Below, piece after piece: positions 2,113 to 20,000 of a stretch of 20,000 bases of DNA. Where the stretch lies: assembly GCF_004010195.1 (NCBI RefSeq), contig NC_057718.1, positions 44,157,660-44,177,659 on the forward strand, in the 5' to 3' direction. The stretch's first letter is position 1. Every line of letters starts with the position of its first letter. A program made the translations under genes and the position numbers. Origin of the DNA: Chiloscyllium plagiosum. Its lineage: Eukaryota. Below the pieces are notes generated by a model that was not told where the DNA came from, made no database searches, and worked only from the letters and a program-made list of their open reading frames with translations.

Positions 2113-2211
2113 TCCCACTCATGATTTGGAGATGCCGGTGTTGGACTGGGGTGTACAAAGTCAAAACTCACACAACACCAGGTTATAGTCTAACAGGTTT
2201 AATTGGAAGCA

Positions 2212-2246
2212 TACTAGCTTTCGGAGCGTTGCTCCTTCATCAGGTG
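2212..2246 (-). ncRNA. Minimal type I hammerhead ribozyme motif (PLE-type)
   Basis: Minus strand reads cac-CTGATGA-a-GGAGC-aac-GCTCC-GAAA-gc-TA-gta: intact CUGAUGA and GAAA core, perfect 5-bp stem II, palindromic AGCT in place of stem III. Confidence 0.75.
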
Positions 2247-2297
2247 ATAGTGCAGGGCTCAATCCTATCTGTGTGTTAGGATTGAGCCTTCCACTAT

Positions 2298-2332
2298 CAT
2301 CTGATGAAGGAGCGACACTCTGAAAGCTAGTG
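2298..2332 (+). ncRNA. Minimal type I hammerhead ribozyme motif (PLE-type)
   Basis: cat-CTGATGA-a-GGAG-cgaca-CTCT-GAAA-gc-TA-gtg: core intact; stem I cat/gtg and stem II each contain a G-U pair. Confidence 0.7.
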
Positions 2333-3814
2333 TGCTTCCAATTAAACCTGTTGGACTATAACCTGGTGTTGTGTGATTTTTGACTTTCCCACTCAGCCAG
2401 TGTAAGTGCTACCACCTTCTTTCTGATACCTCACACTTTAAACCTGCTACTGTACCCATTTGCCCGAAAGGTTCATGCTCTACCACTCTCAATAATGACA
2501 GCAACATTTTCTCTCCCACCACAAACCCTGGCACCACTAACCCTTCATGCCCACTGTGCTGCCTGATCTCTGACTCATGACACCACTCCACCTGCACTAA
2601 CCGTAACAGCTGTACCGCACACTTACATCTCCCTTATTACCTGTGTCTCTCCCAATAAAGGAGGAAAGATCTGTCTAGTATAGCAGTTGGGTAATGGACT
2701 GCCTGACATTCAACTCCTCACCCCAATATGGAGAGCTTCCTGTCTCTGACTGTCCTGAATGACTGACTGGACTAGTATCGGAGGCTGCCCTTGACTTATT
2801 GTGCTGGGATCTCCTGAGAGGAAGCTTCCTTTGTGTCTGTGCTAAATAGCAAGACAAGACAGAACCAATATGGGCCTCATACCTCTGGCTGAGTGGCAAC
2901 ATCCTAAGAAGGCAATGCTAGGCAGGGATGCTATGGGCATCTGGGTAGGATCTGAGTGAGAGAATGCTATAACATTGAACAAAAGCCTGTAGATGTAGCC
3001 TGGTCCAGTCCATGAGCTGATGTAGTGTCCCTGAGCAGACAGTATCCATACTGAGCATTACATTGCTAGTTGCTGGTACAGCCCAAGTTGCAGCATTGAA
3101 TTGCTGAAACATCCTGCAAGTGGATTGGAGATGTGCCATGCAGGTTAATAGAGGGTGGCACATATCTGATGCCAGTGCCCATGAAGATTGGGTGTATATG
3201 GTCTGTACTCATGAAGCTTATCCTGAGATCTTGCTGCTTAGTGTTCAACATGGTGTTTGTTCAGACCAAATAGTGAAATGTGCTCACCAGGTACCTGCTC
3301 TAGTTTCCATCTTGAATTTTCTCGACATTAAGCATGTTTGGAGAGATGGAAAGCTGAATATTAATGGGGCTACTTGGGTCATGAACAAGGTGTTTAACAA
3401 ACAATATTGCCCCTTAACTGGCAACTCGCTGCTATTTAGCAAGAAACTCCATAACATCATATCTACCCACCTTACCTACTTAGCTGCTACTCAACTGCTG
3501 CTCATCTATCATCCTCCTCCTTCACCCATTTACCTACCATTCTACTTCTTCAACCACCTGCCACCCTAAATACCTCATCCAGCCACCAGTCCAAATCCAT
3601 CTCTTGGTTTCTTACAAGTCTTAGATATTTCAGGCATGGCATAATAGACTAAATCAATTGAGGAGTAGCATACCCTTACTTAACCCCTTCACCCAACTAC
3701 TTGCCACCCTGCTACCTCATCCACTTACCAAATAGCCCATCTGCTCAGGAAGTTACTGTGAGCACTCACCATTTCTCTGTAGATTGTTACATTTTTCCAG
3801 TTAAATAAAGGGCT

Positions 3815-5483: not shown

Positions 5484-5586
5484 CCAGAAAGAAAAAGGGT
5501 CACTGAAGCTGAAATGTCAACTCTGTTTTCCCTCCACAGATCCTGCCAAAACTGCTGAGTTTCTCCAGCAATTTTTGGTTTTGTTT
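5484..5586 (+). mobile_element. PLE-derived terminal-repeat fragment with decayed hammerhead
   Basis: AAGGGTCACTGAAGCTGAAATGTCAACTCTGTTTTCCCTCCACAGATCCTGCCAAAACTGCTGAGTTTCTCCAGCAATTTTTG is similar to 13690-13775(+) and to the reverse complement of 11270-11359. Confidence 0.65.
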
Positions 5587-6283: not shown

Positions 6284-7058
6284 TGTCATATTCAAGTGAC
6301 CATGGGCCCGTTTGGATATTCTAAATGGACCCACAGTTGGAGAAATCAGACATGACAGAAAATTGGACAAATTAACCAGCAGCTATCAGCTACAAAGAAC
6401 AATGGAAATCAAAATCAAAAATGTTATGGAGGTTCATCGGGAAACAATTACAATAAACCCGAGGGTTGTGTATTGGAGAAGCATTGATTAGACATTCTGA
6501 TATCTTTGCTGCCTGAGAATGTGCACTTTGTACCTCGTGGCATAGCAATAGTGAAGGGTATTGGCAGGACCCCATTGGATGATTTGACCCCAGCTCATCA
6601 CCCCATTGACCAAAGGCCACAGAACATTTCAGAAGGTCAGGGGTGAACAGGAATAAGAACGCACAACTTGATGTCACCCCCTCAGTGAAGGCTTACAGCA
6701 GAAGGCCACGCAGAAACCGAAGAAGACCCAGGATAAGATCCTCCCTGATCTGTGAGACCCACCTTCATGGAAGAGAGCCATCCCTACATCAGAGAGGGAA
6801 AGAGACTTCAACAGCTCAGCTCAAGGATCATGGCAGGTAAAAGCCTCTCCTCAGCCTGATAATGCTAGATAAAGATTAAATATTGTGGGAATTTGGAAAA
6901 TACTCCCATAGTGTTTTTACAAAGGAATATTTTGTTCGTAAAATCAAGTTGAATTGCAAACCAAAGTTTCAGTCTTTTTGTCCACCTCACCAACAACAGC
7001 ACTTGGGTAAAGTGTTATTAATACATAAACTGGTCAAAGTGTCCAAAGCACAGATACA
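6284..7058 (+). repeat. 5' LTR
   Basis: Begins TGTCAT, ends ..CACAGATACA; colinear with 11463-11549 plus 12910-13646, e.g. the shared CCCGAGGGTTGTGTATTGGAGAA and TAATACATAAAC.GGTCAAA blocks. An ungapped block 6568-6647 vs 13107-13186 has 16 mismatches in 80 nt. Confidence 0.88.
6568..6665 (+). promoter_or_regulatory. Putative U3 promoter: two inverted CCAAT-like boxes followed by a degenerate TATA-like element
   Basis: CCCATTGG at about 6571 and CCCATTGA at about 6602 (both CCCATTGG in the 3' LTR); AATAAGAA at about 6652 corresponds to TCTAAGAG in the 3' LTR, giving an inferred ancestral TATAAGA. Confidence 0.4.
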
Positions 7059-7565
7059 ATGTTATCTCTGGATGATCTTCAACTAGAAGTGTCTGTATAA
7101 CCTCCAAAGTCGAACAAACACCACCCACCTTTCTATCTGACCTCTCAGACATCCAGCCTGAGCCCAAAAGAAGAGGGTAAATGCCTATATGATGGCCAGG
7201 ATTCAAAAGGTTGAAAGAGGATGAAGGTTTCTGACCAGTGATTTGATCATTAACCAAGTGCTTGTAATGTGAGGGGGAAAACACAGTTAGAGTTTGTACA
7301 GAATCAGAACCCACAGAAAAGGAAATCTAGCATAGGCTAGTGCAGGTCAGGGATTTTGTGCAATGAACAGAGGCAAGGAGCCAAACAAAGGATCAGAGGA
7401 CGAACAAGGTGGCAAGATGCCAGATATTGGAGACAAGGACTCACAAGGATACAGAAAAGTTAGAGTAGGTCTAGGTCCCAGAGCTGTAGAGAAGCACAAA
7501 GGAAGCTAATATAGGGGCAGGAACCCATGAGAGAGAAAGCGAAATTGAGAGAGAGAGAGCAGTAA

Positions 7566-9233
7566 ATTATAAGAAAACATACATAAGAAGTTCCCAGGTG
7601 GGTCAACTATTGCAGTGAGCAAATATTTGGTCCAAGATCCATAGGACACAGATGCTGGGAGACTCCAGAAAGCTGAAGAGAAGCACACTGTGTGAACATC
7701 AGCAAGGTTTCAGCAATAACCATCTACATGGGAGCTACAGAAGTGAAGCTGAATGAAATGAAACAAGAGCTGGAACCAGTAAGAGTCAAAGCAGCAAAGC
7801 AGGAGCAGAGGAACCATGAGAATGTGGTACACTTGGGATAGATTTTGACCCAGTGTGATAGACTGTACCAGGAGGAGTAGCGCTTGGTCAGTGATCAGGA
7901 CATAGCCCAGAAGCTATGAATGAGCTGACCAAGAAAGTAAAAACCCATCGATTGTGCTCAGAGTCCTGCACCAGGCAGGCAAAGAAAACAGACCCCCATA
8001 CTGTGGACTCTACAAAATGTCAGTGCAAGATTGAAAAATTAAAGTTCAAACATTCCATGCATTTAGGACAATAGAATCAGTTGGGAACAGCAATTATGGG
8101 TTAGACTGGGAGGAAATGGAAGACCAAGTTTTTTGATACGCCAAGAGTAGCGAAGATTGGGAATCTGTTCCTCCTTTTCCAGAGGGAGTAAATCTTCAGC
8201 AACTCCAGGTTCTTACCCTGGCCTGAAGAACCAACTGATCACAACCTATCAGCATGCCCAGAGTAATAATCCAATCACTTATACAGCCCCCGTTTTCAGT
8301 GGCATAATTGGTGGAGAGAGCAAAATAATCCCGTTTCTGAACCCACTGCTGACAACGTATGTTTAACCCACCAACAAAGGGTTCTCCATGGGCTCGATAG
8401 TGTCAAGGAGATAAAATTAATGTTAATGTACCTGAACCCCCATGATCCATTCTGCCTTCCACAATCCTTAGCATATGAGAGGACAGGAGCTGCAGTCCAT
8501 GACAACAGCAATCCTAGCCACTGTACAGTACAATTGGGGAAATGCTGTGGATGGATTAAATCAGCATAGGCAGCAGAAGGAGCAGCACCTAATTGTATTT
8601 GTCAAGAACCTGTAGAACAATTCACGGGAGTCTTCAGTAACTGAGATTGAATTAGGCTGACACCACAAAACAGGGTAAATTGGAACCAAATGCTTGTCTC
8701 ACACACCACTGAGAGCACGAGGAAAGCCTGCAAAACCTTTGATCCCACAGACAACATCCAGACAAAATAATAGGTGATAAGGAAGATAACCCAAGCCTGG
8801 GAGAAAGATTCATGAATCAGAACACCCCAAATCAGGCCAAGGGAAAAATGCACCCAATAAAAGCTCCAAACCCCAGTCCTGTGTGCAGGAATGAAGGGAG
8901 AAACAAGGGGTGTTATTATCACAGCCATCCACCTGTATACACCCATCCTGCAGAAAGAGGTAGGGATTGCCAATAGGAGGTCTGAGGCAGTAGCAGCTAC
9001 CACAAGAGAAATGCTACAATTGTGGGCACACAGAGCACTTCTAAGGGACTCCAGGGTACCTAGGGCAGTTAGTGCAGGAGCCAGGCTTCAGACCCCAGTT
9101 CATGCCAGTGGAAGAACCAGAAAGAAAACCAGCAGGTAGTTTGGTGAGGAAGATCATGCAGCCAAATTCAGAGGAGGAAACCCTGCTGTCTAAAACCTTA
9201 TACCTCTGGTTGGATCCATTCCCCAAAGCATGA
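7566..9233 (+). pseudogene. gag: Decayed gag (many stops and frameshifts)
   Basis: E/K/Q-rich helical segment at about 7735-7950; capsid-like QQRVLHGLDSVKEIKLMLMYLNP and NAVDGLNQHRQQKEQHLIVFVKNL (8541-8612, MHR-like Q...E....F...L); zinc knuckle CYNCGHTEHF-/RDS at 9012-9052; ends KTLYLWLDPFPKA-TGA (9231-9233). Start position approximate. Confidence 0.75.
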
Positions 9234-10914
9234 TGGAGCCATGCCTCTCCCCAGTGGGTGTGCAGCACCAGATGGGCCAGTCCTGGTAAATGGAAAGAAT
9301 GAAGGCTGCCCCATTGTGTTTATAAGGGACATAAGGGGGTCCAGAATGAACACATCCTGAGATTTTGATAATGCACAGTGCACCCATTAAAAACCTTTTT
9401 CGAGTGGACTCATTGAAGGAAGGGGGCAGAGAAAGATGCCTTGAGTTTAAACTGGGAGAGTTAGTTTGCCATCACCCAGCAGTGTTGGTTAATCTCCACA
9501 TGGATGTTGAGCACATTTTAAACTCAAATCTTATGAGGGCATGTTTTTTTTTGTTTCGATTTGGCAATTCCCTGAACTCGATGAAGCCCCAGTGGAGATT
9601 GTGACAGGCACATGCACACAGGGAATTTGTACCAAAGGGAACTGTGGATAAGACCCACCAAAATGACTGAGGATCCAGCAACACAGGTAATTCTCGCAGA
9701 GCATAACTGTACATTCACCAACACAACTGCGAATCGTATCGAGGGTGAGATAGTGATGGACAGACCTGACCCAAAACCACAAAGAAAATACACTTGCCGC
9801 AAGTAGGCAAGAGGGGGAGGTGGCCAAGATCATTAGCAACTTGTTAAAACAAGGAGTACTATGTCCGATTGCATCTACCAATAACTCACCAATGTGGCCA
9901 GTTAAAAAACACATGGCTTTTGACAGCTCACCATTGATTACAGGAAATTAAATAAAACACCCCAATCACATCACCAACAGTAGTAGCAACTAGCCTCAAA
10001 ACCATGATGAGACAGTGCCCCATGGGCTAAAATATTTCACTGTACTGGACATTAGTAATAGATTTTACTCCATCCCCCTCCACAACCACTATCAATATAA
10101 ATTCACCTTCACATTTCCAGGCCAACAATGCACACGGACCTGCTTGCCCCATGGATTTCATAATTCTCCATCAATAGTTCATCAGTGGTGATTTAAAGGA
10201 CTGGAGAGGTTTTCCTGACTGGACTGCTTGGTACAACATGTGGAACATATCTGCCTGCCCTTCAGAGACAATGACCAAACACTTGGTACTGTTAAAGAAA
10301 TTGTCAACCATCCTCACTAAACTAAGACTAAATGTTAACCCCAAGAAAGCACAGATCACAAGGTTCCACCTCTCATACTTCAGAACTGAGAACCCTCTGG
10401 AGAAAAAACGGGAGCTATAGGGAGAGGCTGAACAGGCTGGGGCTGTTTTTCCTGGAGCGTCAGAAGCTGAGGGGTGACCTTATAGAAGTTTATAAAATTG
10501 CGAAGGGCATGGATAGGATAAACGTCTCTGGGGTGGGGGAGTCCAGAACTAGAGGGCATAGGTTTAGGGTGAGAGGGCAAGTTTTTCATTCAGAGGGTGG
10601 CACATGTATGGAATGAGTTGCCAGAGGAAGTGATGGAGGGTAGTACAATTGCAACATTTAAAAAGCATCTGGATGGGTATATGAATAGGAAGGGTTTGGA
10701 GGGATATGGGCCAGGTGCTGGCAGGTGGGACTAGATTGGGTTGGGATATCTGATTGGCATGGACGAGTTGGATCAAAGGATCTGTTTCGGTGGTGTACAT
10801 CTCTATGACTCTGAGGCCATAATCCTCCCCAGGGATCTGAGCTCGTTGTGTTCCTTTCTGGGCTTAGTGAGATACTGTCAGAATCACATCGACGTTTTCA
10901 CCACTAAAACTATG
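9234..10914 (+). pseudogene. pol: Decayed pro-pol: aspartic protease plus reverse transcriptase, interrupted by a CR1 fragment at 10412-10812 and truncated after the RT thumb
   Basis: Protease PIVFIRDIRGSR (GAC ATA AGG GGG TCC at 9328, two transitions from DTGGS) and EHILNSNLM (ILGxD-like). RT: IISNLLKQGVLCPIASTNNSPMWPVKK (to 9909), LTIDYRKLNK (9927), YFTVLDISNRFYSIPL (10033), YKFTFTF..QQCTRTCLPHGFHNSPS, LVQHVEH (decayed YVDD, 10237), LNVNPKKAQI, then LSSLCSFLGLVRYCQNHIDVF after the CR1. Confidence 0.92.
10412..10812 (+). mobile_element. CR1 (HER1-type) LINE, 5'-truncated 3' end inserted in the proviral RT
   Basis: SYRERLNRLGLFFLERQKLRGDLIEVYKI is the CR1 ORF2 C-terminus; 3' UTR ends CTCTATGACTCT; highly similar to the reverse complement of 19665-20000. 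Confidence 0.92.
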
Positions 10915-11007
10915 TTGTTCAGCCTGTTTACTTTGATCTACCTCACTGTCCTCCGTTGGAAGAAGAAACTCAATGAGAAACTAACCACGGACTCTATGCT
11001 ATTATAG
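10915..11007 (+). pseudogene. Possible env C-terminal remnant (partial transmembrane helix plus basic cytoplasmic tail)
   Basis: LFSLFTLIYLTVL-RWKKK-LNEKLTTDSMLL*: a hydrophobic run followed by a basic stop-transfer cluster, located between the RT break and the 3' UTR/LTR; no connection/RNase H-like sequence in any frame. Confidence 0.4.
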
Positions 11008-11269
11008 TGGGAACCAAGCACTTAATGAACACACACTGCATCATGAAAGGATGATGCCAATTGTTCAGTGGTATGAATTTTACTCTATTGAGAGCTGCTA
11101 ATCACCTAAGAGGCTTAAGGGCTATCAAGTGAATGGAATTAGTAACTAATTCTTAACTTCTATATTATTTGTATATAGCACTGTTAAGCTTGTTTATGTG
11201 CATATGGAAGATAGTTAATGTCTGGGATACAGCTGTCTATGTGCAATGGGGAATCTAGATAGTGAGGGA

Positions 11270-11359
11270 CAAAAACAGGAATTGCAGTAAAAGCTCAGCA
11301 GGTCTGGTAGCATCTGTAAAAAGAAATCAGAGTTTTGGGTCCAGTTACCCTTTCTCAGA
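11270..11359 (-). mobile_element. 90-bp mini PLE terminal-repeat insertion with 9-bp TSD
   Basis: AGTGAGGGA is duplicated at 11261-11269 and 11360-11368; the interior CAAAAACAGGAATTGCAGTAAAAGCTCAGCAGGTCTGGTAGCATCTGT..GGGTCCAGTTACCCTTTCTCAGA is the reverse of the PLE end with a decayed hammerhead. Confidence 0.8.
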
Positions 11360-11739
11360 AGTGAGGGAGTTAGGCTAGCTGCCTGAGTCTTGACAAGTGC
11401 CTGCACAAGAGTATGATCAGAGTCTGTGATCTCATTTTTGCTTGACACTTCAAGGGATCAACTGTGGTCAAATGACCATAGGCCCAAAATTGGACATTCT
11501 AAATCAACCCACAGATGGAGAAATTGAGCTTGACAGAAAACTGGCCAAAAGGTGTGCCGCTGGAAAAGTACAGCAGGTCAGGCGGCATCTGAAGAGCAGG
11601 AGAGTCGACATTTTTGGCATAAGCCGTTCATCAAGAATGTTGGGATGGGCAACCAAAGGGCTTGAGAGATAAATGGGAAGGGGGATGGGGCTGGGGGAAG
11701 GTAGCTTGGAAGGCAATAAGTAGATGAAGGTGTGGGGTG

Positions 11740-12069
11740 ATTAGATTAGATTCCCTACAGTGTGGAAACAGACCCTTTGGCCCGACAAGTTAATACTGAT
11801 CCTCCGAAGAGTAACCCCCCCCCAGACCCATTCCCCTACCCTACAGTTACCCCTGATTAATACACTTAACACCAGGGGCAATTTAGCATGGCCAATTTAC
11901 CTGATCTGCACATCTTTGGACTGTGGGAGGAAACCAGAGCACCCAAAGAAAATCCACGCAGACACAAGGAGAACGTGCAAACTCCACACAAACAGGTGCC
12001 CGAGGCTGGAATTGAATCTGGGACCCTGGTGCTGTGAGGCTGCAGCGCTAACCACTGACCCTCTGTGCC
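11740..12069 (-). mobile_element. HE1-type tRNA-derived V-SINE
   Basis: Minus strand: A-box-like CAGTGGTTAGC, B-box-like GATTCAATTCC, V-domain TGTGTGGAGTTTGCACGTTCTCC..GGTTTCCTCCCACAGTCCAAAGATGTGCAG, CR1-like 3' tail GGGTCTGTTTCCACACTGTAGGG and (AATCT)n end. Confidence 0.92.
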
Positions 12070-12303
12070 AATGATAGGTTGGAGTGCAGGGTGGAGTGGA
12101 TAGGTGGGAAGGAAGATGGATAGGGAGGACAGCTCAAGAATGCGGTGCCGAGTTAGAAGGTTGGATCTGGGATGAGGTGGGGGGAGGGGAGATGAGGAAA
12201 CTGGTGAAGTCAACATTGATGCCGTGTGGTTAGAGGGTCCCAAGGAAGGAGATGAGGCGTTCCTCCTCCAAGTGTTGGGTGGCTTGAATTTGGCAGTGAA
12301 GGA

Positions 12304-12570
12304 GGCCTCCTCTATATTGGGGAGACAGGATATCAACTTGTGGAATGGTTCAGGGAACATCTCTGGGACCCACACACACCCAACAATCCCAATGCCATGT
12401 GACCGAGCATTTCAATTCCCCCTCCCACTCCACCAAGGACATGCAAGTCCTGGGCCTCCTCCACCGCCAAATCCAAGCCACCCGATACCTGGACGAAGAA
12501 CGCCTCATCTTCTACCTAGGGATCCTCCAACCACATGGGATCAATGTTGATTTCATCAGTTTCCTCATCT
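12304..12570 (+). pseudogene. PLE GIY-YIG endonuclease C-terminal fragment
   Basis: GLLYIGETGYQLVEWFREHLWD, frameshift, then CHVTEHFNSPSHSTKDMQVLGLLHRQIQATRYLDEERLIFYLGILQPHGINVDF. Confidence 0.85.
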
Positions 12571-13267
12571 CCCCTCCCCCCACCTTATCCTGGATCCAAC
12601 CATCCAACTTAGCATCACCTTCTTGAACTATCCCACCTGTCTATCTTCCTTCCCGTCTATCTGCTCCACCTTCAGCTCTGACCTATCACCATCATCCCCC
12701 ACCTTCATCAACTTATTGCCTTCTAAGGTACCTTCCTCTCAGCCCCACACCCCTCCCATTTATCTTTCAACCCTTTGGACTGCCCCCTACCCTCCCCATG
12801 CCCAAAACATTGACTCTCCTGCTCCTCAGATGCTGCCTGACCTACTGTGCTTTTCCAGTGCCACACTTTTTGACTCTGTTCTCCAGCATCTGCAGTCCTC
12901 AATTTCTCCGACAAAATTGGCCAAACTAATTTAAACAGCAAGATCATAGAGGTTATAAAACTTCAGGGGAATCAGTTACAACCAGCCCGAGGGTTGTGTA
13001 TTGGAGAACTTTTGATCAGACTTCCAGGCATCTTGCCTTCCAGCCAATGCCTGAGACCATGCACTTTACACCTCCTCAGAATGGCAACAGTGACTGGTGT
13101 TGGTGCGACCCCATTGGATAACTTGAACCCAGCCCATGATCCCATTGGTCAAAGACCAGAGAACATTCCCGAATGTCAGGAGTAAGGGGGTCTAAGAGCA
13201 CACACCTGGATGTCACTCCCTCAGTGCAAACCCAACCTGACCCAGCAATGGAGCTCCAACCATCTGG

Positions 13268-13320
13268 AGGGAGAGAGAGGCAGAGAGACAGAGACACAGA
13301 GACAGAGAGGGAAAGAGAGA
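13268..13320 (+). repeat. Imperfect (GA)/(GACAGA) microsatellite within the 3' LTR
   Basis: AGGGAGAGAGAGGCAGAGAGACAGAGACACAGAGACAGAGAGGGAAAGAGAGA; not present in this form in the 5' LTR. Confidence 0.8.
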
Positions 13321-13646
13321 ATATCCATTCTGACCTGCAAGTGGCACCTTCATAGGAGACAGCCAGCCCTACATTGGAGAGGAAGGAGATTCCAACAGCC
13401 CAGCTAAAACGCATGAGTCATTGTAGGTAAAATCTTTCACAGATTGATTGAGCTAGACAAAGAATAAATATTGTGGTAATTTGGGAAAGGCTCACAAAGT
13501 GTTTTTAATAAGGAATATTTCATTAATAAAATCGAGTTGACCTGCAAACAAATTTTGTGTTCCCTTGTCTACCTCATTGACAAAACTGCATGGGTAAATT
13601 ATTTTTAATACATAAACAGGTCAAACTGTCAAGACCACAGACAATA

Positions 13647-13775
13647 ATGTGAAAACAGAAGCAGAATGAACAGAGTTCCAAGAAGACTCACACTTGACTT
13701 GACCCTTTAACTCTTTTTTGCTCAACACAGATGCTGCCAGACCTGCTGAGTTTCTACAACGTATCCTGATTTTGT
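13647..13775. mobile_element. Right part of the PLE-derived palindromic element split by the provirus
   Basis: ATGTGAAAACAGAAGCAGAATGAAC continues the arm broken at 6283; then CACAGATGCTGCCAGACCTGCTGAGTTTCTACAAC forms the opposite arm. Confidence 0.6.
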
Positions 13776-15724: not shown

Positions 15725-18380
15725 TGTATTTGTCCAAATGCCTTTTAAATGTTGTTAATGTATCCACCTCAACCACTTCTGCTGGCAGCTCATTCCATAT
15801 GTGTACCACCCTCTGTGTAAAAGATGTTGCCCCTCAGGTTCCCTTTAATCCTCGGTACCCCAACCTGGGAAAAAGACAGAGTGCATTCCCCCTATCCATG
15901 CCTCTTATGATCTTATACACCCTATAAGGTCCCCCCTCAGTCTCCTACGTGCTAAAGAAAAAAGTCCCAGCTTGTCCAACCTCTCCCTATAACTCAGACC
16001 ATTGAATCCTGGCAACATACTTGTAAATTTCTTCTGCACTGTTTCCAGTTTAATAACACCCTTCTAATAACAAGGTGACCCCCAAAACTCTAACTGCAGC
16101 CTCACCAACATCCTGTATAACTGCAACATAACTTTCCAACTTCTATACTCACTACCTTGACTGATAAAGGCCGTTGTCCCGAGAGCCTTCTTCACTGCCC
16201 TGTCTACCTATGACTTCACTTGAACTCCAAGATTCCTCTGTTCCACTTCATTCCTTAAGGCCGTATGATTCACCATGAAACTCCTACCTTGATTTGACGT
16301 TTCAAAATGCAAGACATCATACTTATCTATATTAAAGTCCATTTGCCATTTCTCAGCCCACTTCCCCAGCTGATCAAGGTCCTGCTGCAATTTCTGATAA
16401 CCTTCCTCACTGCCCATGATACTGCCTATTTTAGTGTCATCAGCAATACTAATCACACTTTGAACATTCTCATCCAAATCATCGATATAGATAACAAATA
16501 TTAATGGGCCCAGAAATGACCCCTGAAGCAGTCCACAATTCACAGGCTTCCAGTCTAACAAAATCCTTCCACTATTACCCTCTGCTTCCTACCATAAAGC
16601 CAATTGTGTATCCAATTTGCCAGCTTGTCCCAGATTCCATGCAATCTAATCTTCCAGAGCAACCCACATGTGGAACATTATCAAAGGCCTTACTGATATC
16701 TATATAGACTACATCCACCGCCCTGCCCTTGTCAACCTTCCTGGTCACTTCATCAAAGAACTCGAACAAATTTATGAGACATGATCTCCCACTCACAAAG
16801 CCATGCTGAATACTCCTAATCAAACCCTGTCTTCCCAATTGCATGTATACCTTAATCTTCAGAATCTTCTCAAGTAACTTACCCACCACAAATGTTGGAC
16901 TTACTGGTCTATAGTTCCCAGGCTTTTCTTTGCAGCCCTACTTGAATAATGGCACAATATTCACTACCCTTCAGTCTTCCAGGATTAACAATGATGCAAA
17001 AATATCAGCCAGGGCCCCCACATTTCCTCTCTAGCCTCTTGCAGTGTTCTTGGATATATCTGGTCAGGACCAGGAAATTTACCCACCTTCACACATTCTA
17101 ATACAACCAACACCTCCACTACTGTGATATGAACTATTCCCAGGATATCATCACTAACTTCCCCAAGTCCCCAAGTCTTCATGTTTTTCTCCATAGTAAA
17201 CAGAGAGGAGAAATATTCATTAAGAACCTCGCCCATCTCCTGTGGTTCTACACATACTTGTCCACTTTGGTCCTTGAGGGGCCCTATTCTCTCTCTAGTT
17301 ATTCTTTTTTCTTTAATACACTTAAATTATCTCTTTGGATTCACCCTAATCTTCTCAGCCAAGACTATCTCGTGTCCCCTTCTGATTTCCTTCTCCAGTA
17401 AACTCCTATGTTCCCCATATACCTCCAGGCATTCCCTCGGTCCCAGCTACCTTCACCTGAGTCACACCTGTTTTCTGGTCAAAGCCTCAATATCTCTTGT
17501 CATCCAGGGTTCCCTATTCCTGCCAACCTTGTTCTTCATCCTCACAGAAACATGTAGACCTTGAATTTGAGTGATCTCACTTTTAAAGGCCTTCCACTTG
17601 CCAGAGCTTCCTTTGCCTGCAAACAAACTACTCCAGTCAACCCCTCCAAGTTCCTGTCTAATTCCATCAAAATTCGTCTTACCCCAATTTAGAACTTAAA
17701 CCTGTGGACCAGTTTTGTCCCTCTCCATAACTATTTTAAAATTAATAGAACTATTGCCACTGGTCCCAAAATGCTCCCCCACTGTCATCTCCATCACCTG
17801 TCCTGCCCTATTTCCCAAGAGTAGGTCAGGTTTGCCCCTTCCCAAGTAGGACCCTCTATATATTGTTTGAGGAGTCTTTTCTGAATGCACTTAACAAATT
17901 CCACCCTATCTAAGCCCTTAACGCTCTGGCAATCCCAGTTTATGTTAGGAAAATTAAAATCCCCTACTATGACAACCATATTGCTCCTGCAAGTCTCCCT
18001 AGTCTCCCTGTATATTTGTTCCTCTAATTTCCGTTGACTATTTGGGGGCCTGTAATATAACCCCAATAACATCACCATCCCCTTCTTAGCTCCACCCGCA
18101 AAGCCTCACTGGATGATTCTTCAGTTATTTCATCTCTGACTACTGCTGTGACACTCACCTTAATCAAAAATGCAAGTCCCCCTCCCCTCTTTCCACCACC
18201 TCTGTCCCACCTAAAGCACCTGTACCCTGGCACATTAAGCTGCCAGTCCTGTCCCTCTCTTAGCCATGTTTCTGTAATGGCTATAATATCCCAATCCCAT
18301 GTACCTAACCATGCCCTAAGTTCATTGGCTTTACCTGTCAGCCCTCTTGCATTGAAATAGGTGTAATTTAATCCAACAGA
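15725..18380 (-). pseudogene. CR1 ORF2 (APE endonuclease plus RT), frameshifted with internal deletions
   Basis: YFNARGL..DIIAITETWL; LYYRPP; VIVGDFNFPNINW; KFPGPDQIYPR; QHGFVSGRSCLINLFEFF; YIDISKAFDNVPH; QGSFLGPLIFVIYIDDL; IADDTK; WNELP..FKRHLD. Confidence 0.95.
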
Positions 18381-18494
18381 CATTTCTTGCTCCATGTCAT
18401 GCTCCAGCCTGACCTGTCTCTTCATCTTACTATTTCTGATTACTGTATCTCCTTTGAGCCTTGCATTTGCCTCCCTGTTTTGTGGATCCCACCC

Positions 18495-19356
18495 TTAACC
18501 CTCCCTGGTAGCACTAGCAAACCTGGCTGCCAAGATATTGGTCCCCCTCTATTTCAGGTGCAACTCGTCCCTCTTGAACAGGTCACTTCTGCCCCAGAAA
18601 AGATCCCAATGATCTAAAAATCTGAATCCCTGTGCCCTGCACCAATTCTTCAACCATGCATTCATCTGCCCTAATCTCCTGTTCTTACACTCACTAGCGT
18701 GTGGCACTGGAAGTAATCAGGAGATTATCACCAATGAGGTCCTGGTTTTTAATTTTTGTTCTTAGCTTTCTATAAACACTCTGCAGGACCTCATTCCTAT
18801 TTCTACCCATGTCATTTGTACCAATGTGCACAATGACTTCTGGCTGCTCCCTCATGAGAATGTTCTGCAGCCACTCTGAGACATCCTGGACACTGGCACC
18901 TGGGAGGCAACACACTATCCTGGATTCACATTTGCCACCACAGAATCTCCAATCTGTCCCCCTAACTATCGAATCTCCTATCAGTAAGGTCCTGTTTGCC
19001 CTTACCCTTTCCCACTGTGCCCCAGAGCCAGTCATAGTGCCACCAACCTGGCTACTGTTGCTTTGGCCTGAATGGTCATTCCCCTCCCCACCCCTCCAAT
19101 AGTATCGAAAACAGAATCCTTGTTTTCAAGAGGAATGGTCGTAGTGCATTGCTGTACTCTCTGCCTTTGCCTTTCCTGGTGGTCACCCAGTTACTCTCTG
19201 CCTGCACCTTAGGTGTGACTACCTCACTAAAACTCTTATCTATGAGGTGGTCAGCATCTCAGATGATCCTGAGTGCATTCAGCTCCAGATTCAGCTCCAG
19301 CTACCTAACATGGTCTCCCAGAAGCTGCATTTCTCACAGGTGTAGCCATCAGGGAT
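18495..19356 (-). pseudogene. CR1 ORF1 (zinc finger/leucine zipper plus SGNH esterase)
   Basis: PDGYTCEKC then LEL..LRII; esterase blocks LLIGDSIVRG, CCLPGA, VIVHIGTNDMG and GTNILAARF. Confidence 0.9.
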
Positions 19357-19664: not shown

Positions 19665-20000
19665 ATATAGAGTCATAGAGTCATAGAGATGTAAAGCATA
19701 GAAACAGACCCTTCAGTCCAACCTGCCAACGCCGACCAGATATCCCAACCCAATCTAGTCCCAACTGCCAGCACCCGGCCCATATCCCTCCAAACCCTTC
19801 CTATTCATATACCCATCCAAATTCCTCTTAAATGTTGCAATTGTACCAGCCTCCAACACATCCTCTGGCAGCTCATTCCATACATGTACCACCCTCTGCA
19901 TGGAAAAGTTGCCCCTTAGGTCTCTTTTATATCTTTCCCCTCTCACCCTAAACCTATGCCCTCTAGTTCTGGACTCCCCGACCCCAGGGAAAAGACTTTG
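19665..20000 (-). mobile_element. CR1 (HER1-type) LINE 3' end, continuing beyond the window
   Basis: RGNFSMQRVVHVWNELPEDVLEAGTIATFKRNLDGYM; tail (CTATGACT)n seen as ATAGAGTCATAGAGTCATAGAG on +. Confidence 0.93.

What the first reader, a model, noticed from the sequence alone, without database searches (positions are those of the whole stretch)
6284..13646. Cryptic ancient retrovirus-like provirus, possibly from a basal (lokiretrovirus/spuma-related) lineage in a shark
Seen: paired LTRs around gag-pro-RT remnants that only emerge by stitching frames. Established: LDISN(G)F.SIPL, LP(Q)GFHNSP and (Y)V(DD) are retroviral or spuma-like RT signatures, whereas Ty3/gypsy RTs typically read LDL.SGY.Q, MPFGL.NAP and YLDD. 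True foamy virus Gag lacks a CCHC knuckle, which this element has (CYNCG..H). Inference: a spuma-like RT with CCHC Gag, a long coiled-coil Gag N-terminus and a DTGGS protease fits a deep-branching group such as lokiretroviruses. It may be an undescribed elasmobranch family. I cannot establish novelty without a search.
Basis: partly seen in the sequence, partly recalled or inferred. Interest (0 to 1): 0.85.

Follow-up and report, generated by a model that had tools for sequence, protein, structure and literature searches.

The report
Decayed snakehead-retrovirus-like endogenous provirus
This is a very old, broken and partly deleted copy of an abundant endogenous retrovirus family related to snakehead fish retrovirus, a lineage already known from sharks, so it is an ordinary genomic fossil and not a new kind of virus.

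Summary
The paired LTRs and the gag-pro-RT remnants are real. The LTRs are 6284-7058 and 11463-13646, 72.6% identical, and the 3' LTR is split by a 1.35 kb repeat insertion. RNase H, integrase and env are absent from this copy.

Two details are overstated. The protease site reads D-I-R-G-S, not DTGGS. The zinc knuckle is only CX2CX4H.

The family is abundant, with at least 1275 LTR candidates in this 3.56 Gb genome.

In an RT tree (70 rows), the window copy and its family sit in a clade with snakehead retrovirus (SnRV) and frog and coelacanth ERVs (support 98/96). They lie inside the retroviruses and away from Ty3/gypsy (100/100). An exclusive grouping with true foamy viruses is rejected (p-AU 0.006). 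A sister relation between the whole SnRV-like clade and foamy viruses is not rejected (p-AU 0.31).

An intact catshark Gag homologue shows the same layout.

Verdict: a new member of a known kind (SnRV-related, "clade Huo"). It is not a lokiretrovirus. Interest is low.

The parts
6284..7058 (+). 5' LTR (775 bp), TGT...ACA ends
   Evidence: Aligns with the 3' LTR. Other genomic copies match from LTR position 6 to 771. At least 1275 candidate copies in the genome, of which 40 were scored, at 70-75% identity apart from the window's own LTR and one 62-bp piece.
7059..8068 (+). Leader and N-terminal, charged/helical part of gag. Heavily broken, purine-rich.
   Evidence: Frameshift-tolerant local alignment to catshark Gag P0083 residues 31-200 scores 78, against 43.2 +/- 3.6 for 10 shuffles (maximum 47). 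There are 9-15 stops per frame in 7250-7900. No primer-binding site was recognised.
8330..8848 (+). gag capsid-like region, read through stops
   Evidence: tblastn with P0083 residues 288-459 gives E 6e-12. phmmer of 8270-8905 against 1.84 billion proteins gives 5 hits at E<=1e-3; the best is P0083 at E 1.7e-10.
9012..9038 (+). Remnant of a single CCHC zinc knuckle (CYNCGHTEH; last Cys missing)
   Evidence: Regex hit. Copies L028 and L032 show CYNCGFTGH and CCNCGHTGH. The intact relative P0083 has CYNCGQLGHFAREC, Pfam zf-CCHC E 1e-7.
9319..9568 (+). Protease remnant: mutated active site FIRDIRGS at 9319, C-terminal part at 9413-9568
   Evidence: copy L025 reads WDTGD at the same place. P0001 residues 9-60 align to 9413-9568 at 54%.
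9559..10411 (+). Reverse transcriptase fingers and palm: 5 frameshifts and 2 stops, YVDD mutated to HVEH
   Evidence: Pfam RVT_1. tblastn with P0001/P0089. Frameshift-aware reading.
10412..10812 (+). Inserted 3' tail of a LINE. Not part of the provirus.
   Evidence: Matches 19990-19677 (81.5%) and 15995-15733 (68%) in the window. RT homology continues on both sides.
10825..10923 (+). RT thumb remnant (LPRDLSSLCSFLGLVRYCQNHIDVF...). This is the last pol homology.
   Evidence: P0089 residues 361-393, 67% identity, E 5e-9.
10924..11462 (+). Family-specific stretch that lies just before the 3' LTR in other copies. The junction of the internal deletion that removed RNase H, integrase and env lies within about 10911-11070.
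   Evidence: In copies L026 and L029, 1.8-2.1 kb separate what is 160 nt apart here. Those and other copies keep RNase H and integrase remnants. There is no such homology in the window.
11463..11550 (+). 3' LTR, first 88 bp
   Evidence: 79% identical to 6292-6371. It is continuous with the rest of the LTR in copy L026.
11551..12905 (.). Insertion into the 3' LTR: two inverted copies of a roughly 600-bp interspersed repeat
   Evidence: Inverted repeats. The unit has 30,680 first-look candidates in the genome at about 80% identity. Flanking duplicated target.
12906..13646 (+). 3' LTR, remainder

Best explanation
The region 6284-13646 is one dead copy of an old, high-copy endogenous retrovirus family of a cartilaginous-fish-like genome.

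Inferred history: the ancestor was a retrovirus of the snakehead-retrovirus (SnRV)-related lineage. It had a Gag with a long helical N-terminal region, a capsid and one CCHC knuckle, followed by protease, RT, RNase H and integrase. It integrated in the germ line and multiplied to more than a thousand LTR-bearing copies.

Shown: this copy has since lost everything between the RT thumb and the pre-LTR region. It took a LINE tail in RT and two copies of a 600-bp repeat in its 3' LTR. It accumulated about 27% LTR-LTR difference, and frameshifts and stops in every gene. It cannot encode any protein.

Inferred: it has no function beyond being repeat DNA.
For: - Anatomy.
- Retroviral domains: RVT_1; gag homology to catshark Gag P0083.
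- Decay.
- Abundance: 1275 first-look LTR candidates, 40 scored, all but one 62-bp piece matching at E<=1e-71.
- Full pol in the family: RNase H and integrase remnants in copies L026, L028, L030, L033-L036.
- Lineage, from the careful IQ-TREE RT tree of 70 rows x 242 columns:
  - window + 6 copies, 100/96
  - plus the intact shark RT P0001, 97/83
  - plus L035/L036, 100/97
  - all inside a 23-row clade with SnRV and frog and coelacanth ERVs, 98/96
  - retroviruses against gypsy, 100/100
- Reference identity: L041 is SnRV, because its gag is exactly NP_043925.1.
- Bit scores of P0001's RT segment: frog/coelacanth ERVs 245-313, SnRV 227, foamy 131-152, epsilon-type 107-138, gamma 80-104, gypsy 53-97.
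- Gag layout:
  - SnRV Gag has a coiled coil plus one zinc finger (PMC2717909).
  - P0083 has predicted helices over residues 26-202 plus one CCHC.
Against: - The window's own RT, read without frameshift correction, does not discriminate: MLV 47.4 bits, foamy 45.6.
- The read-throughs used in the tree were guided by P0001, which may pull the degraded rows towards it.
- The tree held no lokiretrovirus, ERV-L, class II or teleost foamy-like reference.
- No sequence similarity was found between the window's gag or env space and SnRV gag or env. The SnRV coiled coil scores 36 against a shuffled mean of 39.
- The two LTRs are no more alike (72.6%) than either is to LTRs elsewhere (67-74.5%), and the target-site duplication is weak (4 of 6). 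A single integration event is therefore likely but not proven.
- The P0083 model is of low confidence (mean pLDDT 43).
Confidence: 0.85

Rival explanations
1. It is a foamy-like endogenous retrovirus in the strict sense: a member or immediate sister of the Spumaretrovirinae lineage.
For: - Among solved structures, foamy virus PR-RT is the best match for intact relatives: P0001 151 bits against MLV 90; L027 80.5 against 61.
- The SNGFW and LPQGF-NSP motifs are shared with foamy RT (alignment).
- A clade of the whole SnRV-like group plus foamy viruses is not rejected (delta lnL 9.0, p-AU 0.31).
- Aiewsakun & Katzourakis 2017 call shark and Xenopus pol sequences that cluster together 'FLERVs' (PMC5512871, passages). 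Xenopus tropicalis proteins sit in the same clade as this family. That they are the same elements is inferred.
Against: - Family plus foamy as an exclusive clade is rejected (delta lnL 36.9, p-AU 0.006).
- In the free tree, foamy viruses fall elsewhere.
- SnRV (227 bits) is much closer than any foamy virus (131-152).
- No Spuma_A9PTase match in P0001, which covers the protease C-terminus, whereas all 6 foamy contigs scanned match it at E<=1e-63.
- Gag has a CCHC knuckle. Foamy Gag has none (PMC2717909).
Confidence: 0.08
2. It is a lokiretrovirus or another lineage basal to all retroviruses, which would be new for cartilaginous fish.
For: - Lokiretroviruses are reported from lampreys, bony fishes, amphibians and reptiles but not from chondrichthyans (PMC7947760, section 5 and passages), so a shark member would be new.
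- The closest full-length relatives are annotated 'NYNRIN-like', and lokiretrovirus integrase is said to be close to CGIN1. That CGIN1 equals NYNRIN is recalled.
Against: [quoted passage not shown] This family nests with the exogenous retrovirus SnRV at 98/96.
- 'NYNRIN-like' is a generic automatic label.
- No lokiretrovirus sequence was available for a direct test.
Confidence: 0.02
3. It is a Ty3/gypsy or other non-retroviral LTR retrotransposon.
For: - Pfam names the relatives' integrase zinc domain Integrase_H2C2, and UniRef calls some of them 'Gypsy retrotransposon integrase-like'.
Against: - Gypsy outgroups separate from all 60 retroviral rows at 100/100.
- Relatives have the retroviral tether plus RNase_H arrangement.
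- Ty3 RT scores 88 bits against 151 for foamy.
Confidence: 0.01
4. The unit is a composite, with two LTRs from different insertions or a recombinant of two proviruses, and not one integration.
For: - LTR-LTR identity (72.6%) is no higher than LTR identity to copies elsewhere.
- The candidate target duplication matches at only 4 of 6 positions.
Against: - Same orientation and correct order: LTR, gag, pro, RT, pre-LTR stretch, LTR.
- Both junctions are shared with other copies.
- Equal divergence is expected if the family burst and this insertion are of similar age.
Confidence: 0.1

Closest known systems
Snakehead retrovirus (SnRV) and SnRV-related ERVs ('clade Huo' of Xu et al. 2018; CmiERV lineage I of Han 2015)
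   Same: - RT clusters with SnRV at 98/96.
- Gag has an N-terminal helical or coiled-coil region and a single CCHC knuckle.
- The protease is of DTG type.
- The lineage is already reported in cartilaginous fish.
   Different: - No detectable gag or env sequence similarity to SnRV itself.
- RT is only about 46% identical between the shark relative P0001 and SnRV.
- This is an endogenous, high-copy, long-dead family, and this copy lacks RNase H, integrase and env.
- SnRV's same-frame gag-pol read-through cannot be checked here.
Frog and coelacanth ERV Pol proteins annotated 'NYNRIN-like' (P0002, P0003, P0005, P0009; Xenopus tropicalis P0006/P0008)
   Same: - These are the nearest full-length relatives of the family's RT: 45-50% identity and 272-335 bits to P0001.
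- They lie in the same starred clade.
- Domain order is PR, RT, tether, RNase H, integrase.
   Different: - Different host classes.
- They are intact, while this copy is not.
- Whether the Xenopus ones are the published XtrFLERV is not verified.
Foamy viruses (Spumaretrovirinae) and foamy-like ERVs
   Same: - RT motif style (SNGFW, LPQGF-NSP).
- Best match among solved RT structures.
- A sister relation of the wider clade is not excluded.
   Different: - CCHC Gag.
- No spumapepsin (A9) signature.
- An exclusive clade is rejected.
Catshark Gag-like proteins (Scyliorhinus torazame XP_072337111.1 = P0083; P0084; P0087)
   Same: - The only proteins among 1.84 billion that match the window's capsid region.
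- They match family copies at up to E 4e-24 (P0084 on L028; P0083 on L028 7.6e-22).
- Same CYNCG..GHF knuckle.
   Different: - They are open reading frames annotated as host genes.
- 25-51% identity only.

Membership tests
Retroviridae-type endogenous provirus | Two direct LTRs in the same orientation with TG...CA ends | tested here: met
   The LTRs are 6284-7058 and 11463-13646. blastn E 2e-73. 72.6% identity over 763 columns. TGT...ACA ends read.
Retroviridae-type endogenous provirus | Target-site duplication, primer-binding site, polypurine tract | tested here: inconclusive
   AGGATG against ATAATG, 4 of 6. No recognisable PBS after 7058. Only AAGGGA before 11463.
Retroviridae-type endogenous provirus | gag (capsid, CCHC), aspartic protease, RT in that order | tested here: met
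   All are present as remnants in the right order. All are broken.
Retroviridae-type endogenous provirus | RNase H, integrase, env | tested here: not met
   Absent from the window. RNase H and integrase remnants exist in other family copies. Env was not found in any copy examined.
Retroviridae-type endogenous provirus | RT inside the retroviral clade, outside Ty3/gypsy | tested here: met
   100/100 split between 60 retroviral rows and 10 gypsy rows.
SnRV-related retroviruses (clade Huo) | RT clusters with snakehead retrovirus | tested here: met
   23-row clade with SnRV, 98/96. SnRV identity of L041 confirmed by exact gag look-up.
SnRV-related retroviruses (clade Huo) | Gag with coiled-coil region and one zinc finger | tested here: met
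   - Window: partial knuckle, and an N-terminal region homologous to P0083's long-helix region.
- P0083: helices over residues 26-202 and one zf-CCHC (model confidence low).
- SnRV.
SnRV-related retroviruses (clade Huo) | gag-pro-pol in one frame, read through a stop codon | not testable with these tools
   The frames in the window are scrambled by indels. SnRV itself shows it.
Spumaretrovirinae / strict foamy-like ERV | RT forms a clade with foamy viruses | tested here: not met
   The exclusive clade is rejected, p-AU 0.006. A wider SnRV-like plus foamy clade is not rejected, p-AU 0.31.
Spumaretrovirinae / strict foamy-like ERV | Spumapepsin (Pfam Spuma_A9PTase) protease; Gag without a Cys-His knuckle | tested here: not met
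   No PF03539 match in P0001 at E<=0.01, against 6 of 6 foamy contigs scanned. CCHC remnant in gag.
Lokiretroviruses | RT sister to, and outside, all sampled retroviruses | tested here: not met
   The family nests with the exogenous retrovirus SnRV. This is indirect, because no lokiretrovirus sequence was in the tree. Definition taken from PMC7947760.
Lokiretroviruses | Paramyxovirus-F-like Env; CGIN1-like integrase | not testable with these tools
   No env or integrase survives in the window. Family copies are too decayed.
Ty3/gypsy (Metaviridae) | RT inside the gypsy clade | tested here: not met
   (100/100 separation). Ty3 RT scores 88 bits against 151 for foamy with P0001.

The most novel reading that the evidence does not exclude
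The family could be an uncatalogued ERV family with more than 1000 copies, shared among ground sharks and belonging to the SnRV-related lineage.

Two further possibilities would add interest. First, the SnRV-like clade may be the true sister of foamy viruses, which the data do not reject (p-AU 0.31). In that case its Gag type, a coiled coil plus one CCHC knuckle, would suggest that the foamy lineage once had an orthoretrovirus-like Gag and lost the knuckle later. Second, the intact 543-residue catshark Gag homologue, annotated as a gene with three isoform records, could be a domesticated copy.
Probability: 0.12. Interest if true: 0.5.

Novelty: new member of a known kind. Interest (0 to 1): 0.18.

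Why it matters
In itself it matters little. It is one decayed copy among more than a thousand, from a retroviral lineage already recorded in cartilaginous fish.

It is useful as a worked example. 'Spuma-like' RT motifs together with a CCHC Gag point to the snakehead-retrovirus-related clade and not to a new basal lineage. Shark and frog elements published as 'foamy-like' on pol alone may belong to that same clade.

The abundance of the family shows that this lineage has contributed appreciably to a large shark-type genome. The open catshark Gag homologue is a lead for a possible co-opted gene.

Tried and rejected
- Pfam on the three whole forward frames found only RVT_1, and nothing for gag, protease or env.
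- The window's uncorrected RT against solved structures could not separate MLV from foamy.
- tblastn of SnRV gag, pol and env against the window and 20 genomic copies gave pol hits only.
- The SnRV coiled coil against the window's gag N-terminus scored no better than shuffles.
- The young relatives with the longest open frames (L021-L024) turned out to be partly masked with N. Only their visible gag, protease and RT-start parts were used.
- The structure prediction of catshark Gag P0083 was too poor for a fold search (mean pLDDT 43, pTM 0.25). Only its secondary structure is quoted, and no fold search was run.
- A first own-genome protein search failed on the server. It was repeated with a shorter query.
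- Hart et al. 1996 on SnRV is not held.
- Three look-ups of earlier findings returned nothing.
- Primer-binding site and target duplication: no convincing result.
- Age from LTR divergence depends wholly on the assumed rate:
  - 79 Myr at 2.2e-9 per site per year
  - 174 Myr at 1e-9
  - An impossible 789 Myr at the 2.2e-10 used for elephant shark in PMC4422223
  - So only 'roughly 10^8 years' is claimed.
Full report
WHAT IS THERE

The window is part of a 3.56 Gb assembly.

- LTR pair. A self-comparison shows two direct repeats, 6410-7054 and 12939-13641 (blastn E 2e-73). Their ungapped blocks are 74-80% identical.
- Split 3' LTR. A further match, 6292-6371 to 11468-11549 at 79%, shows that the 3' LTR really begins near 11463. 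It is split at 11551-12905 by an insertion flanked by a roughly 16-bp duplicated target.
- The insertion. It is made of two inverted copies of a roughly 600-bp repeat. That repeat has 30,680 first-look candidates in the genome.
- Boundaries. With the insertion set aside, the LTRs are 6284-7058 and 11463-11550 plus 12906-13646. They have TGT...ACA ends. Other genomic copies start and stop matching within about 5 nt of these ends.
- Divergence. The two LTRs are 72.6% identical over 763 aligned columns (116 transitions, 93 transversions, K2P 0.347).
- Weak or missing signals. The candidate target duplication (AGGATG / ATAATG) matches at 4 of 6 positions and is not convincing. No primer-binding site is recognisable.

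INTERNAL REGION

Between the LTRs lie, in order:
- A purine-rich, much-broken stretch (7059 to about 8070).
- A capsid-like stretch (8330-8848).
- A knuckle remnant, CYNCGHTEH, at 9012.
- A protease remnant: FIRDIRGS at 9319, with the C-terminal part at 9413-9568.
- RT (9559-10411).
- A LINE tail insertion (10412-10812).
- A short RT thumb remnant (10825-10923).
- 540 nt that precede the 3' LTR in other copies as well.

The supporting results are these.
- Pfam sees only RVT_1 (E 8e-7).
- A frameshift-aware reading of RT, with X at each break, needs 5 frameshifts and 2 stops. It is 63% identical over 215 residues to P0001, an intact 331-residue PR-RT fragment. Without any correction, the match to P0001 is 57% identity at E 1.9e-33.
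- A longer member of P0001's cluster, P0089, aligns up to residue 352 at 10411 and resumes at residue 361 at 10825.
- No RNase H, integrase or env homology exists in the window.
- Several other copies keep RNase H and integrase remnants. They have 1.8-2.1 kb where the window has about 160 nt. This copy therefore carries an internal deletion.

- LDISNRFYSIPL, LPHGFHNSP and HVEH are there.
- 'DTGGS' is not. No D[TS]G occurs in any forward frame of 7059-11462. Of three loci hit by a probe of that site, only L025 shows DTG. L029 does not, and L032's match does not reach the site.
- The knuckle lacks its last Cys at the canonical spacing in the window and in L028 and L032. The other two of the 4 loci hit show no motif (L030) or only partial coverage (L025).

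THE FAMILY

- The 616-bp LTR core has 1275 first-look candidates. Of these, 40 were scored; apart from the window's own LTR and one 62-bp piece they are 70-75% identical.
- A 65-residue RT probe has 1598 candidates, of which 150 were scored. These include other ERV families.
- Ten fetched loci (L025-L034) share 66-85% nucleotide identity with the window's LTR and internal parts.
- The window's LTRs are no closer to each other than to LTRs elsewhere (67-74.5%). The insertion is therefore about as old as the family's expansion.
- LTR divergence gives 79 or 174 Myr at 2.2e-9 or 1e-9 per site per year. It gives an impossible 789 Myr at the rate assumed for elephant shark in PMC4422223 (main text read). 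I claim only an age of the order of 10^8 years.

LINEAGE

Scores against solved structures:
- P0001 scores 151 bits against chains named Pr125Pol and Peptidase A9/RT/RNase H. Their assignment to foamy viruses is recalled. It scores 90 against MLV RT, 88 against Ty3 and 66-74 against HIV.
- Family copy L027 gives 80.5 against 61.
- The window's uncorrected RT gives 47.4 (MLV) against 45.6 (foamy), so it has no discriminating power.

The Protein Data Bank holds no fish retrovirus, so natural references were fetched from the viral contig collection.
- One, L041, encodes a gag identical to NP_043925.1, 'gag polyprotein [Snakehead retrovirus]'.
- Foamy contigs were recognised by Pfam Spuma_A9PTase (6 of 6 scanned).
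- Gamma-type contigs were recognised by MLVIN_C and zf-H2C2.
- Epsilon-type contigs were recognised by a weaker MLVIN_C.

P0001's RT segment scores as follows:

| Reference group | Bits |
|---|---|
| Frog and coelacanth ERV Pol proteins | 245-313 |
| SnRV | 227 |
| Foamy | 131-152 |
| Epsilon-type | 107-138 |
| Gamma | 80-104 |
| Gypsy | 53-97 |

The careful IQ-TREE analysis used 70 rows and 242 columns under LG+C20+F+G4. The rows were:
- the window
- 8 family copies
- 7 other ERVs of this genome
- P0001
- 24 vertebrate ERV proteins
- 8 foamy, 6 gamma and 4 epsilon-type contigs
- SnRV
- 10 gypsy rows

Left out were 5 chance metagenome hits, 5 further foamy and 5 further gamma contigs, 41 further gypsy-type or lower-scoring proteins, and 6 fragmentary or partial-match proteins (P0017, P0018, P0024, P0026, P0027, P0038).

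The tree gives:
- window + 6 copies, 100/96
- plus P0001, 97/83
- plus L035/L036, 100/97
- all within a 23-row clade holding SnRV, the frog proteins (including Xenopus tropicalis) and a coelacanth protein, 98/96
- retroviruses against gypsy, 100/100
- foamy viruses monophyletic (100/100), placed elsewhere on an unstarred branch (85/90)

Two AU tests followed.
- Forcing the family and foamy viruses into one exclusive clade costs 36.9 lnL (p-AU 0.006).
- Forcing the whole SnRV-like clade together with foamy viruses costs 9.0 lnL (p-AU 0.31), which is not rejected.

Caveats:
- The degraded rows were read with P0001 as guide.
- No lokiretrovirus, ERV-L, class II or teleost foamy-like reference was available.

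GAG

- The capsid-like stretch (8270-8905, stops as X) finds 5 proteins at E<=1e-3 among 1.84 billion. The best is P0083 at E 1.7e-10. P0083, P0084 and P0087 are Scyliorhinus torazame proteins.
- P0083 also matches family copies, up to E 7.6e-22 on L028.
- P0083 has one zf-CCHC, CYNCGQLGHFAREC.
- In a low-confidence model (mean pLDDT 43; pLDDT 62-77 over residues 81-160), P0083 has long helices spanning residues 26-202.
- The window's 7059-8100 aligns to P0083 residues 31-200 with score 78, against 43.2 +/- 3.6 for 10 shuffles, none of which reached it.
- SnRV Gag shows the same layout: a long charged helical region, one CCHC, and gag and pol in one frame. The literature describes it so (PMC2717909, passages). 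Its sequence, however, is not detectably similar beyond the knuckle.

COMPARISON WITH WHAT IS KNOWN

- Xu et al. 2018 (PMC6001957, passages) define a major retroviral clade related to snakehead retrovirus with the widest host range. It is separate from the foamy-related clade.
- Han 2015 (PMC4422223) found elephant-shark ERVs clustering with SnRV.
- Aiewsakun & Katzourakis 2017 (PMC5512871, passages) named shark and Xenopus pol sequences 'foamy-like'. They found no foamy-type gag or env in them, and the passages searched never mention SnRV. These may be the same clade; this is inferred.
- A 2023 paper reports 'Spuma' ERVs in catshark, with no Gag domain detected (PMC10699275, passages).
- Lokiretroviruses are defined as lying outside all sampled retroviruses and are not listed from chondrichthyans (PMC7947760, section 5 and passages).

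The element is therefore a new, or at least here unnamed, member of a known kind. Searches of the paper library found nothing that names this family. Dfam and Repbase could not be consulted, and no supplements were opened.

VERDICT

This is an ordinary, ancient, internally deleted ERV copy of the SnRV-related lineage. The 'basal or lokiretrovirus' reading is not supported. Interest is low.

Noticed in passing
window 11551-12905: The insertion in the 3' LTR is two inverted copies of a roughly 600-bp interspersed repeat. That repeat has 30,680 first-look candidates in the genome at about 80% identity. It is probably one of the genome's dominant short repeats.
   Followed up: partly
window 16208-19125 (- strand), tails at 15733-15995 and 19677-19990: A LINE with endonuclease-like and RT-like open frames (YIDDL motif) lies downstream on the minus strand. 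Its tail type is the same as the fragment inserted in the provirus RT.
   Followed up: no
window 2157-2387: A 231-bp stretch that is its own reverse complement at 89%, i.e. a perfect-register palindrome.
   Followed up: no
L021-L024, L031, L037-L040 (own genome): The genome also holds a second, younger ERV group. In L021 the LTRs are 96-97% identical, and gag carries a CCHC knuckle and a DTGA protease. This group falls outside the SnRV-like clade, on an unstarred branch with foamy, gamma and epsilon-type viruses. Parts of these loci are masked.
   Followed up: partly
P0083 (Scyliorhinus torazame XP_072337111.1-113.1): An intact 543-residue Gag homologue of this family is annotated as a catshark gene with three isoform records. 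It is a possible co-opted gag, or simply a young ERV gag.
   Followed up: no
P0018 (Mustelus asterias): A gene model named 'sodium-dependent lysophosphatidylcholine symporter 1-like' contains a stretch 95% identical to the shark RT P0001 over 24% of it. This is probably ERV sequence fused into a gene prediction.
   Followed up: no
window 5526-5584 and 13717-13775: A 59-bp motif, 75% alike, lies on both sides of the provirus. It looks like the common tail motif of another repeat and is not a target duplication.
   Followed up: no
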